Translations under genes and position numbers: made by a program | Shown here: positions 22,678 through 31,389 of the stretch, in pieces | Position numbering within the stretch: the stretch's first letter is position 1 | Layout of the letters: each line of letters starts with the position of its first letter | The notes under the pieces: model-generated | What the model was told of the DNA's origin: nothing | The model's database searches: none | The model's input: only the letters and a program-made list of their open reading frames with translations | Assembly (NCBI GenBank): GCA_000004985.1 | Contig: GG738869.1 | Source: Naegleria gruberi | Taxonomy: Eukaryota | DNA length: 64,000 bases | Direction: 5' to 3' (one strand)

Positions 22678-24476
22678 TTATTGAACTTGTTTGTAAACCT
22701 CAAAATTACCCTCTGTAGTTGCTGAAACAATGTATGAACTGGTAAGTGCTACATCGTTCACTCTACTTTTATGATCTAAATGCTCACTCGAATTGTTATT
22801 AATATTGAAAATGAAAAGTCCGTTACTACTGTTTTCAATAAATGAGTTAACATTAGAGGGAACACAAATACTATTATTTGAGAATGGTTTGAAATATGCC
22901 TTGGTAAGATTATCAGAACTGCAACAAAGTTTAGGGTGAGAAAGCGTAGTTAATTCCTTATTAGTTCTGCAATCAAATACTTTCAAAGTATTATCCCTAG
23001 AATTGGTAACAATATAATTTCTATCAAATGATACATCCACAGAAGTTATAGATTCATAGTGAGTTGTTTCTATTTCATCAACATGTTGTTGTATTCTTGT
23101 ATCTGTAAATCTCAACTTTTTATCAAAGTGAGCTGATATAATTACAGAATCTGTAATCTTATCCATTGAATTACATGAACTTCCAGTTAGAACTGTTTTA
23201 GTACATTTCAATTCATTCAAATCCCAAAATTTCATAGTCTTATCATGACTTCCGCTAAGGGCAATATTATTATCTACAAATATACTACTATTTACATGAC
23301 TAGTATGACCTTTCAGAGATGAAAAATGAAAGTTTTTAGAGGAATCATAAATCCTAATAATTCCATCTTTAGAAGTTGCCATTATTTTAGATCCATCATC
23401 TGAAAAGCACACTGAAGTGATTGACCCTAATGAAGCTTTCATAGTATAAATATTTGTGAAGCTCAAATCTTCATTAAACTTCCATAATTGTACAGTATTT
23501 TTCTCATCTCCTGATAATAATAAATTATAATTTGTATCAAATTGTACACAGTTTACAGAACAATCATGGGCTTTCTGTAATACAAATAAATAAAATTGAA
23601 AATTATTTCACTTACAAATCCATATTGATATTCATATTTTTCTCTTACAATTTCCTCGACTCTATTTACATTTGATATTTCCGATTTACCATTTACATAT
23701 TGATTTAACTGTTGTTCAAGTGAATAACTTCTTTGTTGTTCATGTTCCAGTTCATTACAAACATTCATCATTTGTGTCTTGTATTCATTATTTAATTTTT
23801 GGATATAATTTGACATGTGATAGAGTGATGCTTGTAATTGTTTGATTTGTTCATTAAGAATATAATCCTTAGATTTAATAGAATCCACTTCCTTTAAATA
23901 TGTTTTTTGATAATTATCCATGTTTTTAATTTCATCATCTCTTCTTCCAATTTCAATTAAAAACAAATCTGCTTCTCTTCTATGTATTTCCACTTGTTCT
24001 TTACATTGTTTGTTTTTCTCTTCTAATTCTTTATTCTCCTTTGTTAGACTTTCAATTTTTCTATTATAAAACAATAGTAAGAAATTATCATCAACATGAT
24101 CATTACTTACTTGTCTGCTGATCGGAGAGCAGAATTTAATTCCGTAATTTGATCCATTAATCTTGCTATATAATCAATATGATAATTTTCATGTTATTAT
24201 TATAATTTAAATATAATAATAATAAATAAATTTAAATCTAATTAAAAACAAACCCTTGTCTCGCATTACTTCTAAAAATTGTGATTGCAAAACGTCATTT
24301 CTCACATCGGAATTTTCATTAGTAGATACAGGTGGTCTTGGTGATCTGTTCCGTTCCTCTTGAATTTGTACCAAATATTGAAACATTGTATTATTCTTCT
24401 CCGTTTCATCACGTTTTATCAGCAGGTTTGAAAATTCATTTCTAAATTGGATATTGTTGCTGATATTTATTTGCAT
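22678..24476 (-). CDS. atg16: Autophagy protein ATG16 (coiled-coil plus C-terminal WD40), 4 exons
   Basis: Exons 24476-24254, 24165-24111, 24060-23616 and 23574-22678. Introns are 88, 50 and 41 nt. It has an N-terminal helix, a coiled coil, and WD repeats matching ATG16L1 (SGSHDKTMKFWDLNELKCTKTVLTGSSCNSMD...AHFDKKLRFTD). The start codon lies 37 bp downstream of the kinesin gene's stop. Confidence 0.8.
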
Positions 24477-24515: not shown

Positions 24516-27500
24516 TTAAACATCTAAACTGAAAGACCACTGCAGTTTTGTTGTTGATCCATTAAAAGCAATCTCTTCTTCATTTCCTGATCTAAATAAT
24601 TCGAAAATTCTTTCGATAGTTGTACTTAATTTCATCACTTCTTGTTTGTTGTGGCAAAGTTTGATCTTTAACACATTGTCTGGTTGGATAGTCTCTAAAA
24701 TGTTGAAAGATAACTTTTCATTGATTGGAAATTGGCCAACTGTACAAGGCACTAAGCCAGATTTAGCTTTTTCATTATAAGTTCTTTCTTCTGATCCCTG
24801 TGAAAGAGAAACTTTGAAATTTACACAACCATCTCCATACGGACAATTGGTTAATGAAATAAAGTTAACAATCAATATACTATATGAAGATATTGAAGTT
24901 GCTTGAGGTGGTATTACGGTTTTGTTCTTAGATGGTGATGGTAAGCCACCAATGGATAACCTTCTTATTCTTGCTTTCAAAATTTCATTTTCTTTTATCA
25001 ACTCACTAGCATTAGAATACGTATCAGATGTGTCTAAACTATGATTCAAGTCGGAATTTGCTGGAGAAATTGGACTTGTTGGTGGTGTAAAGTTTGGTAT
25101 GGCTTTTCTCTTTGGAGTTGTTGACCCACCAACTGATCCATTTTGAGAACTATTCATGGTTGAATTAGCAAAAGCTTCTTGCATCAAGCCACCATAACTG
25201 GAAAGACTCTTTCTTCTGAGAGAATTCCATTTTCCTTCTTCTTGCGTTATTTCTCCTACCAAATCAAACTGAATAAAGCCATCTTCCAAGTATTCAATTA
25301 AATCCTCGTTAACTGTTCTTACACAGTATCTTCTATGGAAATTGAACAAAAGGTTTGTTCCTGTTTGCTTGGAAGTATGAATTGGTTTCTCAGTATAAAA
25401 CTTGAAACGAACATAATTGTCCTTGGATTGTGAGTCCAATTCCTTAACAGCTTTAATCTTGAGCAGGAAATGAAGAGATTGGCCCATCAAATCATCCGGA
25501 GTTTCAACAGGTAATGGTGTTTGTTTCATGGTTTCATCACCTGGAACCAATGGAACGATTGCTGCTAGCAAGTGGCCCCTTACCTCACCATCAACATCAA
25601 GAAGAGGAAGCAACTCTTCTTTTGCTGTTCTTCTGGCTAAATGCTTCAGTTCCATTCTGGCTGTTCCTACTACTTCGACAGAACTGCCATAGAAAGGATC
25701 TTGAACTTCTTCAGTCATAGAAGTGTTAAGATCATTTTGGACTGGTTCTCTAATGATGAGAACTTTTTCTCTCATCTTTACAAGTCTAGTTTCAAACTCC
25801 TCAACCGACCACATTGTTGTCTTCTTCCTTTCCTTATCAACTGCTTGTATACCCAGAAGAGGTTCAGAATTTTTAACCAGAATTTTCAAGTCATATCTTA
25901 TATTCTTATTGAAATCCTTTACAATATCATTTGCTTCCTTAATCATTGGCAAAAGCCTAACCAAATTTTCATCGATTCTGTTTCTCGAAATATTACCAGG
26001 AGGAGGCTTTACGACCTTTTCTTCTTTGTGGACAAGCTTGTTGTGAAGACCTTTAAGAACACCCCTAACAGTGTCTCTAAAACTTCTTCGTTTCTTCTTC
26101 TTTTTTTCATCCATTTCCTCAAGCTTTTGTTTATGTTCCTCTAACTCTTTGACTTGTCTTTCAATAATTTCTTGCTGTTTGTACTTTTCTTTTTCATATT
26201 CTTTCTCTATCTCCAATAGTTTTGCCTTCATTGTTTCTTCAATTTCTTTTTCTTTTTCTTCTACAGCATATTCAATAGCTCTCTTTTGTTCTTGAGATAA
26301 CTCTTCTTGAGCAAAAGCCCAATCGATATTTTCATCCACTTGTGAGCTTGTTTCTGTAAATCTGAAAACGTGATTATTACCTAAAATTATTCTGTCATTA
26401 CACTTCAGTTCTGTGTCCTTGGTTATCAATTTACCGTTTACATAAACAGTAGCAGAATTGATTGGAATGATTATTATATTCTCGGGAGTTCTGGAAACTA
26501 TACAATGTTGTGGTTTGATTTGAAGACCATTCAGAACAATATTATTAGACTTATCACGACCTAAGAATGTATCACCAATTTTAAAGAAATACACAAGCAT
26601 ACCACTCATCATTGGATCTTCATTCAAGTTGACCAAACTTGGGGCGTCAGTTGATTGAACAATATCTCCAATATCTGTGAACACAATACCAGCTTCTTCA
26701 AGAACTTTTCTTCTTGCCTTTTCAATTTCGTGTGTTCTTCGTTCCTTTTCTTTCTGAGTTGTTTGCAGCTGTTCTATAATTTGTTGACTTGAGGCAAGCT
26801 GTTCTTTCAGTTTAATTTTTTCATCGTCATCGACAACCTTATTTGAAGGTGTAAGAAGACATTTAAGTCTTGAAATTTCATCTCTCAGCTCTCGAATTAC
26901 TGTTGCATTTGGATCTTCGTTGATTTTTGCCTTATTTTTGATACTTTTTGCTCTGTTGGCATATCTGAGGGTGGAAAGAGTTTCTTGGTAATTATAATCG
27001 CTAGGTGAAAGTGTTGCAATCATTATCTTTTGGAAATTAGCTTGTCAACTTTTGTTGAATTACATACCGTTTTGCTATTTCCTCCCAAACTTTCTTTAAG
27101 TAACCAAGTTCTGTAACTCTATTAGTAAAGAGAATTCAACCTTCATACTTACAAAACACTGTTTCTGTAAGGAACAAAAACTTTCTTATTTGGATTTTCT
27201 GCTTTCTCTGACAATTTGTTGATTACATTACCTAGGGCTGTGAGAGAAACGTTAATAGATGATCCTTCCTTTAGTCTTTCGCCTGTTGCTCCTGTTTTAT
27301 CTGCTCTTTCAGAACCAGCTAAATCTATCAAGTTAATGATTGAAACTTTTTCAGAAAAGGCAGAAGTTCCATTGTCAACAATAGATTCAGTAGAAGAAGC
27401 GAGAATAATTTGGAAAATAGTGTGAGCTCTTGATGATGTATCATTCATATTTGTTTTGGCAATAGTTCTTAACCTATTACCTTCATCCATTAACCTCAAA

Positions 27501-28252
27501 ATGTCGTCCTCATTATGTACAATACAAGATTCCATTCCCTCAATATAAGGACCTGTTTGAGGATTTTCTCTAATCTTCAAACCAGCCTTATTATTCAAAG
27601 GATTTGTTGGGTTGAAAAGGTCTCTAACTTGTTCATTATAGATTTCAATCATTGAGGTTTCAACTCTATAATTTCTTGTAATTCCATCATTCTTATTTCC
27701 ATCTTCTCTAATTCTATGAAAGATCGCTTTACAAATTCTAGGAATCAACCCCATATGTTCTCCTTCTCCAACTCCCATCATTGTATACTATATAGTAAAA
27801 ATACAAATACTATTAAAATCCAAACAATCCTCAAATAGACACATACCGTTTTACCACTATCAACAGTTTGAATTCCTATTGTCAATCTAAAACTTACCTT
27901 CCTGTTTGACCATAAGCAAAAAGTGAAGTATTATATCCTTGGAAAGCATTTTCAATGATCCTCACACCAATCTCATCAAACACTTTTTCTTGTGGGGTGT
28001 GTCCCTCACTCTTTTCATCATGACTCCAAAATGAATAATCAAAGCTAAATGGTCTATCTTGTCCATGAGTATCTGGGTCTCTTATTATTGTTTGAGGACC
28101 CTCCATATTAATAATACATTGTGTTCCTCCTTTAATACGTTTTTCTCTTTCATTGAAAGGACGAACACGAACAGCAACCTTAGGAGATGATATTGTTATC
28201 CATCATTGTTCATACTTCTTCTAATACATACCAGCACCGAATCAGACGACAT
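24516..28252 (-). CDS. Kinesin-3 family motor (Unc104/KIF1-like) with FHA domain, 6 exons including a 10-nt micro-exon
   Basis: Exons 28252-28232, 28178-27898, 27856-27847, 27787-27153, 27110-27068 and 27026-24516. Introns are 53, 41, 59, 42 and 41 nt. Motor motifs are [14 protein letters not shown]-loop AYGQTG|SGKT|YTMMG (split by the micro-exon), [24 protein letters not shown]|[14 protein letters not shown] and [25 protein letters not shown]. An FHA domain follows ([33 protein letters not shown]), then a coiled-coil and cargo region. Confidence 0.85.
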
Positions 28253-28534
28253 TTTTTCGTTAGGAAATATAAGTTTGGCGCAAAGATAAGATTCTGGGAT
28301 TGTTGTACAACAGTCACCTAAAGCTTAGAATCAACCAACATCATCGTAATTCATGAAAGAAACTTACAACACAAAGTTGATGGTGATTGAAAGGGCCTTG
28401 GTCATTGAAATAAAAGCGATAAGGCATAACGTTCAAAAACATTGTTTTACCTCTGAGATAAAATAATTGAACAAGAAATCATAAAAACACCCGCCAAAAA
28501 TTTACGCATTTAACCTCTAAAATTAAAAAAAAAG

Positions 28535-31389
28535 ATGGACTCTCTGCCTTTCGATCATTTTCCACCAGAGTTGCTCAATGACTACAACAAGGAATTGAGT
28601 GCAAAAGTTCATGAATTGCAACAATCACTCAATGAAAAACAAAAGAAGGTTAAATCGGAGGAGGATAGAACTTCAACATTAAAGGAGCACTTTAAGAATG
28701 CAACTGTTGAAGCACAAAATACTCAAGCATTGTTAGAAGCTAAGAATAGCGAAACGGAAACAGAGTTGCATCTTAAACAAGTTGCTGAAAGAGAACTGGG
28801 AAGACTCCAAATAGAAATACAAAAAATTGATAAGCAAGTAAATGATATTCAGGATCAGGTAAGTATTCAAGAAATTTAATTTCAAAATTAATTAATTAAT
28901 TAAAAAGACCAACTTGGTTCAAAATGAAATTTTCAGAACTAATGAAAAAATTGATGAGCTTAAAACAAATATGGGTTTTGATCAAGAAGAATTGGAACAA
29001 TGGACATTAGCCGAAAAACAAAAAGAGGAAGATCAAGAAATTATCGAACAATATTCCAAACAAGATGAAAAGAAAATTAAGGATATTAATTTGGATAGTG
29101 AGAAGTGGACTAAACTTACTGAACTCAAAAAAACAGAATATGAAAAGGAAATTACTGAAACACAATCTGTTCAAATTGAGTTAGAAAAAACTGCAGAAGA
29201 TTACAAGGCCCTCCATAAGGAAAGACAAGACCTCATCCAACAATGGGAAGATACAATTGAAGCTATGAATAAGAGGGATGAAATGATTCAAAAGGCTGGA
29301 GAAGCATTGACAAATGGTAAAGACGATATTCAAAGAAGACAAGAGGACTTGTATGAGCATACAAAGAGATTTGAAGATAGAGTCCAAGATAACAAAAAAT
29401 TGGAACAACAAATAGATAAATCTGGAAGAGTTTTGGAAGGACTACGTGACCAAAATGAAAAGCTCAAAAAGCATATCAAGTAAGTATATTAAGAAATGCA
29501 TTCTAACGTTCGTTTAGAGATTTGGAAGATGAACTTGAAGTTATTAGAAACACTCTAGCTAAGAGCTCGAGTGATTTGAACAACAAGAGAATTGAAAAGA
29601 AATATTTACAAGACCAAATTAAAAAGAAGGAAGAAAAACTTGAAGCTTTGACAACACAATTGAAGGAAACAACCACAAGATTGGAAGAAAGTAAAGTTTA
29701 CATGGGAGATCTGGAGTCTAGATCCAAATACGTTTCAGATGTCCTAGTTTCAGAGGAAACCAAGCTTAAAAACATGGACAAAAGATTGGAAGAACTAAAG
29801 ACTCAACTTTATCACCAATCCCAGGCTTTGTTCAAGGAACGACAAAAGGAGGCAAACATGATTGCAGAAATAGGAGGAACAAACTCTCAAAATAAGAACA
29901 TGGTATCAAAAATTTCACAACTTGAAAGTGTGGTTCTTAAACAACAAGAGTTGCTCTATAACATTGAATTCCAAGTTCAACAAATGGAAAGAAGAGTTAA
30001 CAGAGCTCAAGGCGAAAGAACTGAGGAAGAGAAAATCAAGCTTAATCTTCAAATTGAAGAACTTCAAAAGACTTTGGATGAACATGAAGCCCAATTTGAT
30101 ATGATTAAGGGTGAATGGACTAAGGTAATTGGTGAAGTTAGAAAGATTAAAAAGGAAGTTGACATCAAAGAAGATGAAAAAGCTAAACTCACAGAAAAGG
30201 TTCATGATCTCACTTTAGAAAACAATTCACTTGAAGAAGAAATGAAGTTGTTGTCCAGAGAAAAGGAAGACTTACTTGTTCAACACGATATTCAAAAACT
30301 TCAAGTTAAGAGAATGAGAGACATGCTGAGAGCAAGAAGCGATGAAGTATCTGGTTTAGAAAACAGAAAATATCAATTGGAAATGCTCTATGTTGAAAAG
30401 GAACAAAAGGTTAAAGCTCACAAGGAAATGTTAGGAGCAGAATTAAAGGCTTACGAAGATGAAAGAAGAAAGCTTTCTCTTGAATTGAGTAATAGAAGAG
30501 TCCATATCGACAAGCTTAAGAATAAGTATAACATTATGATTCAGAGAATGAAACCAGACGAGGATGGTGAAGAAGTTTCTCAAGCACAATTCTTGATTAG
30601 AGCAATTCAAGAAAGAGAAGAACTTCAAAGAATTGGTGACAAGTTGGATGAAGAAATTCAAAAACTTGAGAGTCATGACAGAGGATTGGAACATACTCTC
30701 TCTTTATTCAAGAATCATAATATTAGGTAAGTTTGAATGATTTCTTTATCTTAATTTCATTTAGCCATAACGAGCATTATAAGAAGGTTGATTTGAACGA
30801 TCCAGACATTAGACAGAAAGTTGAACTTGAAAATAAGTGTAAGGACTTGGACACACTTACCAGTAGAAGAATTCAAGAGCAACACGATTACGAGGAAAGT
30901 GCAACAAGAAAACAAAAGGAATTTGAAGCTGTTATGATCGAGCAAAAAGAAATTCAGATAAAACTAGATGCTCTTAAGAACTCAAAGCAATTGTTAGAAA
31001 AGGATATCAACAAATTGTTGACCTCCCTTGCAACTCAAAAGACGTTATTTAAGAGTCAACTTAAGGAAATTAAGAAGACGCCAGATGGGGAAGTCTTTAC
31101 TCAAGATATTAATTGTACAGATGCCAAACTTAAAATCAAAAATAGCTTATTAACTTTAGGGCAAATAACTGAAGGAAATCCAGTGATGCGAAATACATTG
31201 GAAAAGTACTTGAAAGAAGAAGGGCTCTCAATGCCAATTATCAGTAGACCTGCATCTGGATTATCTGTTCTCTCTTCCAGAACCAGTGTAAAGAGCTCTG
31301 TAAGGAGTGTAAATAGTTCGACAAATAGAAGTACAACTTCTAGTACTAACAGAAAGGTAGCAAACACATCTATAATTTCTTTACAGTAA
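28535..31389 (+). CDS. CCDC39-like axonemal coiled-coil protein (tentative), 4 exons, ~910 aa
   Basis: Exons 28535-28858, 28908-29479, 29518-30726 and 30765-31389. Introns are 49, 38 and 38 nt, and the phases check out. It is coiled-coil throughout. Segments recall CCDC39: AERELGRLQIEIQKI, HKERQDLIQQWEDTIEAMNKRD, LKQQELLYNIEFQVQQMERRVNRAQGE and LQVKRMRDMLRARSDEVSGLENRK. The C-terminal tail is S/T-rich. The family assignment is from memory and needs a search. Confidence 0.5.

What the first reader, a model, noticed from the sequence alone, without database searches (positions are those of the whole stretch)
27847..27856. 10-nt micro-exon splitting the kinesin P-loop
The only reading-frame-consistent model of the kinesin-3 gene joins ...AYGQTG (exon ending GGAAG|GTAAGT at 27898) to a 10-nt exon TGGTAAAACG (S-G-K-T) and then to TATACAATGATGGGA... 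(YTMMG). The flanking introns are 41 and 59 nt, with GTAAGT/GTATGT donors and TAG acceptors. Micro-exons this small need specialised recognition and are rare in intron-poor compact genomes. Here one encodes the core of the Walker A motif.
Basis: seen in the sequence. Interest (0 to 1): 0.55.

Follow-up and report, generated by a model that had tools for sequence, protein, structure and literature searches.

The report
Conserved 10-nt exon in Naegleria kinesin-3
The 10-base exon encoding the Ser-Gly-Lys-Thr core of the ATP-binding loop of a Naegleria gruberi kinesin-3 motor is real and conserved in related amoebae, but it is already in the public gene model and is an ordinary case of a known kind of tiny exon.

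Summary
On the minus strand, exon 2 ends at 27898 (GGAAG|GTAAGT). A 41-nt intron follows, then the exon TGGTAAAACG (27856-27847), a 59-nt intron, and exon 4 from 27787. Only this path restores GQTGSGKTYTMMG. No single GT/GC-AG intron keeps the frame.

The window is Naegleria gruberi NEG-M. My six-exon, 1166-aa model is identical, residue for residue, to the public protein 'kinesin-3' (EFC44305.1 / XP_002677049.1 / UniProt D2VG82). The micro-exon is therefore already annotated.

Annotated orthologues in N. lovaniensis, N. fowleri and Willaertia magna each have a 10-nt exon at the same two positions. All differences within it are synonymous, and the flanking introns are unalignable between genera. 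Two of these annotations (N. lovaniensis, N. fowleri) came from BRAKER1, which is guided by RNA-seq.

Other kinesin-3 genes examined either lack the arrangement or do not show their gene structure: Acrasis (2), 80 metagenomic relatives, fish KIF13A. Some have one intron at a nearby but different position.

It most likely works as a constitutive exon whose two short, strong-signal introns are each recognised across the intron and removed in sequence. That mechanism is inferred. No specialised factor is indicated.

Verdict: real, well read, evolutionarily old, low novelty.

The parts
28232..28252 (-). Exon 1 (21 nt), ATG at 28252-28250, encodes MSSDSVL
   Evidence: the spliced model equals public protein D2VG82
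28179..28231 (-). Intron 1 (53 nt, phase 0, GTATGT...AAG); its position is shared by all four species
27898..28178 (-). Exon 2 (281 nt), the N-terminal part of the motor domain, ending ...FAYGQTG + AG (the first two bases of the Ser codon)
27857..27897 (-). Intron 2 (41 nt, phase 2, AAG|GTAAGT...GATAG); if retained, GGA AGG TAA stops translation at once
27847..27856 (-). 10-nt micro-exon TGGTAAAACG. It completes the Ser codon and encodes Gly-Lys-Thr, the core of Walker A (GxxxxGK[ST])
27788..27846 (-). Intron 3 (59 nt, phase 0, ACG|GTATGT...TTTTTACTATATAG)
27153..27787 (-). Exon 4 (635 nt), [10 protein letters not shown]...PYRNSV, the main body of the motor domain
27111..27152 (-). Intron 4 (42 nt, phase 2); present in the three Naegleria species, absent in Willaertia
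27068..27110 (-). Exon 5 (43 nt), (L)[14 protein letters not shown], a second small exon
27027..27067 (-). Intron 5 (41 nt, phase 0); Naegleria only
24516..27026 (-). Exon 6 (2511 nt including the TAA stop): end of the motor, neck, Kinesin_assoc and FHA domains, and the tail

Best explanation
This is a genuine, constitutively included 10-nt coding exon of the Naegleria gruberi kinesin-3 gene (public protein D2VG82). It lies between two spliceosomal introns that are 10 nt apart and have existed at least since the common ancestor of Naegleria and Willaertia. It supplies the third base of the Ser codon plus Gly-Lys-Thr of the Walker A motif GQTGSGKT, so no functional motor can be made without it.

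Skipping the exon gives ...GQTGSIQ-stop. Retaining intron 2 gives ...GQTGR-stop. Retaining intron 3 shifts the frame.

Likely mechanism (inferred). Both flanking introns are very short (41 and 59 nt) and carry near-consensus donors. Each is therefore recognised as a unit across the intron (intron definition), not by pairing splice sites across the exon. A 10-nt exon leaves little room for complexes on the upstream 3' site and the downstream 5' site together. The two introns are thus probably removed one after the other. After the first removal, the micro-exon is part of a normal-sized exon.
For: Shown here:
- The sequence and coordinates are as described.
- This is the only splice path that restores Walker A, and no single-intron path exists.
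- Chance probability is about 2e-5, and the unit is unique in the window.
- The spliced 1166-aa product is identical to EFC44305.1 / XP_002677049.1 / D2VG82 'kinesin-3 [Naegleria gruberi]'.
- It aligns without a gap across the P-loop to human KIF1A: faygqtgSGKTytmmg against faygqtgAGKSytmmg.
- Pfam finds Kinesin, Kinesin_assoc and FHA domains.
- I threaded the annotated orthologues onto their own DNA. Each has a 10-nt exon with a phase-2 intron after GQTG and a phase-0 intron after GSGKT: N. lovaniensis 51/53 nt, N. fowleri 56/55 nt, W. magna 43/40 nt.
- The micro-exon sequences are TGGTAAAACG, TGGAAAGACA (twice) and CGGAAAAACG. Every difference is synonymous. Intron cores are about 50% identical between N. 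gruberi and the others, which is unalignable.
- Gene order around the locus (CCDC39 | kinesin-3 | WD40; the [20 protein letters not shown] gene further on was seen only in the window and N. lovaniensis) matches the Naegleria relatives, which supports orthology.

Indirect transcript support:
- The N. lovaniensis and N. fowleri annotations were made with BRAKER1, which uses RNA-seq intron hints and no protein homology (PMC6125883; PMC6831594).
- The identical N. fowleri protein also carries a second, separate accession (CAG4710759.1).
- W. magna was annotated with BRAKER2 from RNA-seq plus proteins (PMC11702301).

For the mechanism:
- 7 of the 8 micro-exon-flanking introns in the four species start GTAAGT, against 8 of the 16 other introns in these genes. 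This is weak and the counts are not independent.
- Intron definition is the default for short introns, and an unusually short flanking intron relieves a micro-exon's dependence on PRP-40 (PMC8378409).
- Plant micro-exons of 15 nt or less have strong flanking splice signals and show ordered removal of the two introns (PMC8831610).
Against: I could examine no cDNA, EST or RNA-seq read spanning the two junctions, so inclusion in mature mRNA rests on annotation and conservation. The order of intron removal and the intron-definition mechanism are inferred from other organisms. The excess of GTAAGT donors is not statistically secure: four species, two of them close relatives. The N. gruberi micro-exon contains a donor-like G|GTAAAA that could in principle compete, but it is absent from the N. 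lovaniensis and N. fowleri copies.
Confidence: 0.93

Rival explanations
1. The micro-exon is included, but its splicing is regulated. Skipping or intron retention would produce a truncated or NMD-targeted transcript and act as an on/off switch for the motor, for example during the change from amoeba to flagellate.
For: Because 10 is not a multiple of 3, any failure to include the exon is a null event. The gene shares a roughly 280-bp divergent upstream region with the ciliary gene CCDC39 in three Naegleria species, which hints at stage-linked expression. Plant micro-exons show raised retention of flanking introns (PMC8831610).
Against: There is no transcript evidence of any alternative form. 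The flanking intron sequences are not conserved. The region has no unusual RNA structure (z = +0.71). Near-consensus donors argue for constitutive use.
Confidence: 0.05
2. A different junction is used, for example the 16-nt exon ending at the GTCTAT donor, which gives GSGKTVCYTMMG, or the 5-nt exon path, which gives GQTGRIYTMMG.
For: These paths are in frame.
Against: They insert residues into, or delete the Gly-Lys-Thr of, an invariant nucleotide-binding loop. They use weak donors. They are not conserved, since the intron sequence at those points is unalignable in the other species. They also disagree with all four public models.
Confidence: 0.01
3. The P-loop region is broken by a pseudogene or an assembly or sequencing error, and the apparent micro-exon is coincidental.
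For: Only the general point that a gene interrupted by stops in its catalytic motif can be a pseudogene.
Against: The same architecture is found in four independently sequenced and assembled genomes, with synonymous-only change in the 10 nt. The rest of the 1166-aa reading frame is intact with full domain content. Chance probability is about 2e-5.
Confidence: 0.01

Closest known systems
Conserved ultra-short coding micro-exons (15 nt or less) of land plants, e.g. the 9-nt exon encoding VYLG in the AP2 domain, and the micro-exon in the myosin head motor domain (PMC8831610)
   Same: A constitutive internal exon of a few nucleotides between canonical introns. It encodes the core of a conserved domain, is conserved over long evolutionary distances, and has strong splice signals in its flanking introns. 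A length that is not a multiple of three is tolerated because the exon is always included.
   Different: A different eukaryotic supergroup (Heterolobosea, Discoba) and a different protein (kinesin P-loop). The flanking introns are much shorter (40-59 nt). Unlike most of the plant cases, this one was correctly annotated from the start. Ordered or detained-intron splicing was shown in plants and not here.
Animal neuronal micro-exons (3-27 nt) that depend on SRRM4/nSR100 or PRP-40
   Same: A very small internal exon that cannot be recognised by pairing splice sites across the exon.
   Different: Those exons are mostly alternative and tissue-regulated. They are usually multiples of 3 nt, lie on protein surfaces, and are flanked by long introns that need helper factors. 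This exon is obligatory, shifts the frame if skipped, sits in the catalytic core, and is flanked by very short introns.
Kinesin-3 family motors (KIF1A/Unc104, KIF13A/B)
   Same: The motor domain gives its best matches to KIF1A and KIF13B structures (E about 1e-121 and 1e-117). The order motor - Kinesin_assoc - FHA is the same. The P-loop and flanks are nearly identical to KIF1A.
   Different: The K-loop in loop 12 is weak (NPNKKVF, two lysines). No PH, CAP-Gly or DUF3694 tail domain was detected. The gene structure also differs: fish KIF13A has one 419-nt phase-1 intron in the fourth Gly codon of GQTG, 4 nt upstream of the Naegleria intron 2 position, and no intron after GK[ST].

Membership tests
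Spliceosomal coding micro-exon (15 nt or less) | Internal exon of 15 nt or less bounded by an AG acceptor and a GT donor of canonical introns | tested here: met
   10 nt: GATAG|TGGTAAAACG|GTATGT, with introns of 41 and 59 nt
Spliceosomal coding micro-exon (15 nt or less) | Inclusion is required to keep the reading frame and the protein motif | tested here: met
   No single-intron in-frame path exists, and only this path gives GQTGSGKT. The product aligns without a gap to the KIF1A P-loop.
Spliceosomal coding micro-exon (15 nt or less) | Conserved position with coding-type (synonymous) substitution in related species | tested here: met
   Four species have a 10-nt exon with the same intron phases, and all differences are synonymous
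Spliceosomal coding micro-exon (15 nt or less) | Present in mature mRNA (cDNA or RNA-seq junction reads) | not testable with these tools
   Indirect only: the exon is in BRAKER1 models, which use RNA-seq hints, for N. lovaniensis and N. fowleri, and in the curated N. gruberi model
Kinesin-3 family | Kinesin motor domain most similar to KIF1A/KIF13 | tested here: met
   PF00225 E = 4.6e-108. Best PDB matches are KIF1A at 9e-122 and KIF13B at 4e-117. Outside Heterolobosea the named hits are KIF13A/B; unnamed protist sequences rank above them.
Kinesin-3 family | FHA domain and Kinesin_assoc region after the neck | tested here: met
   PF16183 at residues 395-481 and PF00498 at residues 484-546
Kinesin-3 family | Lysine-rich K-loop insert in loop 12 | tested here: inconclusive
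   The aligned segment is [15 protein letters not shown], with only two adjacent lysines, against the KIF1A stretch around NKKKKKTDFIPYR
Walker A / P-loop NTPase motif | GxxxxGK[ST] | tested here: met
   GQTGSGKT appears after splicing. Lys-Thr and the preceding Gly come from the micro-exon.
SRRM4-type regulated neuronal micro-exon | Alternative, frame-preserving (3n) exon with long flanking introns that depends on an enhancer factor | tested here: not met
   The length is 10 nt, not a multiple of three, and skipping gives a stop three codons later. The flanking introns are 41 and 59 nt. Dependence on a factor could not be tested.

The most novel reading that the evidence does not exclude
The pair of introns 10 nt apart inside the Walker A coding sequence has been kept for the whole Naegleria-Willaertia divergence. 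During the same period, neighbouring introns of the gene were gained or lost. One reading is that the pair is maintained by selection as a splicing checkpoint or regulatory switch for this motor. In that case mis-splicing would give an immediate null, perhaps linked to flagellate differentiation through the shared CCDC39 promoter region. It would not be a neutral leftover of two old introns.
Probability: 0.06. Interest if true: 0.5.

Novelty: already known. Interest (0 to 1): 0.2.

Why it matters
The main value is as a quality check. A reader working from raw sequence alone reconstructed a difficult gene model exactly, and that model matches the curated public protein.

Biologically, it is a clean and deeply conserved example of a frame-shifting micro-exon of 15 nt or less inside a catalytic motif. 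The organism has short introns and belongs to Discoba, outside the animals and plants where micro-exons have been studied. It illustrates that such exons need no special machinery when the flanking introns are tiny. It also gives a ready test case for gene finders and for studies of splicing order in Naegleria.

My two literature searches pairing 'Naegleria' with 'microexon' or 'micro-exon' found no paper that comments on it, but the exon itself is already in GenBank, RefSeq and UniProt.

Tried and rejected
1. The first homology search returned no N. gruberi hit, which suggested the gene might be unannotated. This was wrong. The 90% cluster holding the public protein is represented by a 210-aa ORF fragment, and an exact look-up found the full protein.

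2. Looking up the N. gruberi locus by a neighbouring protein failed because it is not on record. I therefore inferred the annotated CDS coordinates from protein identity and did not read them directly.

3. I tested for RNA secondary structure that might bring the splice sites together. There is none: MFE -17.7 kcal/mol against a shuffle mean of -19.5, z = +0.71.

4. I searched for the same architecture elsewhere.
   - Two Acrasis kona kinesin-3 genes have an uninterrupted P-loop.
   - Among 80 metagenomic relatives, 72 have an uninterrupted P-loop. Some of these contigs may be transcripts, which would say nothing about gene structure.
   - Of the other eight, three are uninterrupted once the ciliate genetic code is applied, and one contig starts downstream of the P-loop. 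Two have one intron after GSGK. Two could not be resolved.
   - One further protist contig has a 30-nt intron inside the Gly codon before Lys.
   - None has the micro-exon.

5. I tested for deep conservation in animals. Look-ups for Stylophora and Popillia KIF13 failed. Liparis tanakae KIF13A worked and shows a single intron 4 nt away from the Naegleria intron 2 position, so the position is not shared.

6. Literature searches for Naegleria plus microexon or micro-exon, and for Naegleria kinesin-3, found nothing on this feature.

Full report
**Observation.**
The gene lies on the minus strand. Read 5' to 3', the sequence is ...TTTGCTTATGGTCAAACAGGAAG|GTAAGTTTTAGATTGACAATAGGAATTCAAACTGTTGATAG|TGGTAAAACG|GTATGTGTC...TTTTTACTATATAG|TATACAATGATGGGA....

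- Exon 2 ends at 27898.
- The next intron is 27897-27857 (41 nt).
- The micro-exon is 27856-27847.
- The next intron is 27846-27788 (59 nt).
- Exon 4 begins at 27787.

Joining the exons gives GGA AG|T GGT AAA ACG| TAT ACA ATG ATG, which is G-S-G-K-T-Y-T-M-M. This completes the kinesin Walker A motif GQTGSGKT.

**Is it the only solution, and could it be chance?**
I enumerated every path through GT/GC donors and AG acceptors (introns of at least 18 nt) that keeps the upstream LFAYGQ and downstream GVGEGEHMG frames open.
- No single intron works. Direct joining of exon 2 to exon 4 reads AGT ATA CAA TGA, a stop.
- Six two-intron paths are in frame. Five of them insert 2-12 residues after GKT or replace SGKT with RI or RIVWILI, and they use poor donors.
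- Only the 10-nt exon gives an intact P-loop.

A unit AG-(Ser third base)-Gly-Lys-Ser/Thr-GT appeared in 7 of 300,000 shuffles of the 110-nt interval. It occurs exactly once on both strands of the 64-kb window, at this spot.

**Whole gene.**
The model has six exons: 21, 281, 10, 635, 43 and 2511 nt. The five introns are 53, 41, 59, 42 and 41 nt. All start GTAAGT or GTATGT and all end AG.

The 1166-aa product has Kinesin, Microtub_bd, Kinesin_assoc and FHA domains. Its best matches among solved structures are KIF1A (E = 9e-122) and KIF13B. The alignment runs without a gap through the P-loop: faygqtgSGKTytmmg against faygqtgAGKSytmmg.

**Source organism and prior annotation.**
Exact-sequence look-ups identify the window as Naegleria gruberi NEG-M, on a 747,259-bp scaffold. 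Neighbouring ORFs equal D2VG80 and D2VG88, and a third equals part of D2VG87.

My 1166-aa model is identical from first to last residue to EFC44305.1 / XP_002677049.1 / UniProt D2VG82, named 'kinesin-3 [Naegleria gruberi]'. Only the 10-nt-exon path yields that sequence, so the public CDS must contain this exon. The feature is therefore already in the reference annotation.

It was missed in the first homology search only because its 90% cluster is represented by a 210-aa ORF fragment.

**Conservation.**
The closest proteins are from N. lovaniensis (72% identity), N. fowleri (in the same 90% cluster as N. lovaniensis) and Willaertia magna (59%). I fetched their loci and threaded each annotated protein onto its own DNA.

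All four genes have a 10-nt exon bounded by a phase-2 intron after GQTG and a phase-0 intron after GSGKT:

| Species | Flanking introns (nt) | Micro-exon |
|---|---|---|
| N. gruberi | 41 / 59 | TGGTAAAACG |
| N. lovaniensis | 51 / 53 | TGGAAAGACA |
| N. fowleri | 56 / 55 | TGGAAAGACA |
| W. magna | 43 / 40 | CGGAAAAACG |

Every difference in the micro-exon is a synonymous third-position change, or AGT to AGC for Ser. The intron interiors are only about 50% identical between N. gruberi and the others, which is effectively unalignable.

Gene order supports orthology. A divergent CCDC39 gene lies upstream and a WD40 gene downstream in N. gruberi, N. lovaniensis and N. fowleri; a [20 protein letters not shown] gene follows in N. 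gruberi and N. lovaniensis.

Other introns of the gene are less stable:
- Introns 4 and 5, which flank the 43-nt exon, are present only in Naegleria.
- N. lovaniensis and N. fowleri have two extra 3' introns that N. gruberi lacks. Its 2511-nt exon is colinear with their 1023/1026 + 1005 + 489 nt.
- Willaertia has two different 3' introns.

The micro-exon pair thus predates the Naegleria-Willaertia split and has outlasted intron turnover elsewhere in the gene.

**Transcript support (indirect).**
- The N. lovaniensis and N. fowleri annotations were produced with BRAKER1, which combines ab initio models with RNA-seq intron hints and uses no protein homology (PMC6125883; PMC6831594).
- The identical N. 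fowleri protein also carries a second accession, CAG4710759.1.
- W. magna was annotated with BRAKER2 using RNA-seq and Naegleria proteins (PMC11702301).
- I could not inspect reads or cDNAs directly.

**Distribution outside this clade.**
- Two Acrasis kona kinesin-3 genes have an uninterrupted P-loop.
- Of 80 metagenomic relatives, 72 have an uninterrupted P-loop. Some of these contigs may be transcripts.
- Of the other eight, three are uninterrupted under the ciliate genetic code and one contig starts downstream of the P-loop.
- Two have a single intron after GSGK (phase 0).
- Two are unresolved.
- A further protist contig has a 30-nt intron in the Gly codon before Lys.
- Fish (Liparis tanakae) KIF13A has one 419-nt phase-1 intron in the fourth Gly codon, 4 nt upstream of the Naegleria intron 2 position. 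It has none after GK[ST].

The P-loop coding sequence therefore carries introns in several lineages, at different nearby positions. The two-intron micro-exon arrangement was seen only in the Naegleria/Willaertia orthologue.

**Mechanism.**
Shown here: the exon is obligatory. Skipping gives GQTGSIQ-stop, retaining intron 2 gives GQTGR-stop, and retaining intron 3 shifts the frame.

Inferred: with flanking introns of 40-59 nt and near-consensus donors, each intron should be recognised across the intron. In the four species, 7 of the 8 flanking introns start GTAAGT, against 8 of the 16 other introns in these genes. This difference is weak and the counts are not independent.

Published work supports the inference:
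- Intron definition is the default for short introns, and shortening a flanking intron frees a micro-exon from dependence on PRP-40 (PMC8378409).
- In plants, micro-exons of 15 nt or less have strong flanking signals, and their two introns are removed in sequence because complexes cannot occupy both sides at once (PMC8831610).

No conserved intron sequence and no unusual RNA structure (z = +0.71) suggests a dedicated element.

**Comparison and novelty.**
In kind, this matches the conserved ultra-short coding micro-exons described in plants, which also sit in domain cores, including a myosin motor domain. It differs from animal neuronal micro-exons, which are alternative, frame-preserving and flanked by long introns.

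It is a member of the kinesin-3 family by motor similarity and by its Kinesin_assoc and FHA domains, with a weak K-loop. The exact gene model has been public since the N. gruberi genome annotation, and the orthologous models also contain the exon. I therefore rate it 'already known'. My two searches pairing 'Naegleria' with 'microexon' or 'micro-exon' found no paper that comments on it.

**Verdict.**
The feature is real, old and functionally obligatory, but it is ordinary in mechanism and already annotated. Interest is low (0.2). The residual novel possibility is that the pair of introns is retained as a regulatory checkpoint. No evidence supports this, and I put it at about 6%.

Noticed in passing
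window 27068-27110 (minus strand): A second small exon (43 nt, encoding [14 protein letters not shown]) lies between introns of 42 and 41 nt. It is conserved at 43 nt in N. lovaniensis and N. fowleri. In Willaertia magna it is fused to its neighbours because both introns are absent.
   Followed up: yes
window 24516-27026 versus L001 and L006: N. gruberi has a single 2511-nt 3' exon. N. lovaniensis and N. fowleri have two additional phase-0 introns there (after HRFLH and after TSTER). All N. gruberi introns lie in the first 1.2 kb of the gene, so introns have turned over within the genus.
   Followed up: partly
window 28253-28534 and 28535-30730 (plus strand): The kinesin-3 gene is transcribed divergently from a CCDC39 (ciliary axoneme ruler) homologue, with only about 280 bp between the two start codons. 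The same head-to-head pair is found in N. lovaniensis and N. fowleri but not in Willaertia. The two genes may be co-regulated during flagellate differentiation. The CCDC39 ORFs are split by gaps of about 34-38 nt, which look like more very short introns.
   Followed up: partly
window 27851-27855 (minus strand), inside the micro-exon: The N. gruberi micro-exon TGGTAAAACG contains a donor-like G|GTAAAA. The N. lovaniensis and N. fowleri copies (TGGAAAGACA) contain no GT. More generally, P-loop codons (GGT AAA/AAG) resemble 5' splice sites. This may explain why introns occur at several different nearby positions in this motif in different lineages.
   Followed up: partly
L003 ~1540-1575; L020 380-480; L024 540-680; L088 14261-14679: Other kinesin-3 genes carry a single intron within the P-loop coding sequence, each at a different position. 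An unidentified protist has a 30-nt intron in phase 1 of the Gly before Lys. Two AT-rich protist contigs have an intron at phase 0 after GSGK. Fish KIF13A has a 419-nt intron at phase 1 in the fourth Gly of GQTG.
   Followed up: partly
L035, L049, L064, L071: Four metagenomic kinesin-3 contigs have in-frame TAA/TAG at conserved Gln positions (e.g. AYG*TGSGKS). This is consistent with a ciliate-type genetic code and not with pseudogenes.
   Followed up: no
window 22678-24476 (minus strand): The gene just downstream of the kinesin has a C-terminal WD40 propeller. Upstream of it are ORFs rich in coiled-coil sequence that match no Pfam family. The arrangement resembles an ATG16-like protein, but I did not test this.
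   Followed up: no
protein database behaviour: The public full-length N. gruberi kinesin-3 protein sits in a 90% cluster represented by a 210-aa ORF fragment from an unspliced genomic contig. The homology search therefore did not return the self-hit. This could wrongly suggest that a gene is unannotated.
   Followed up: yes
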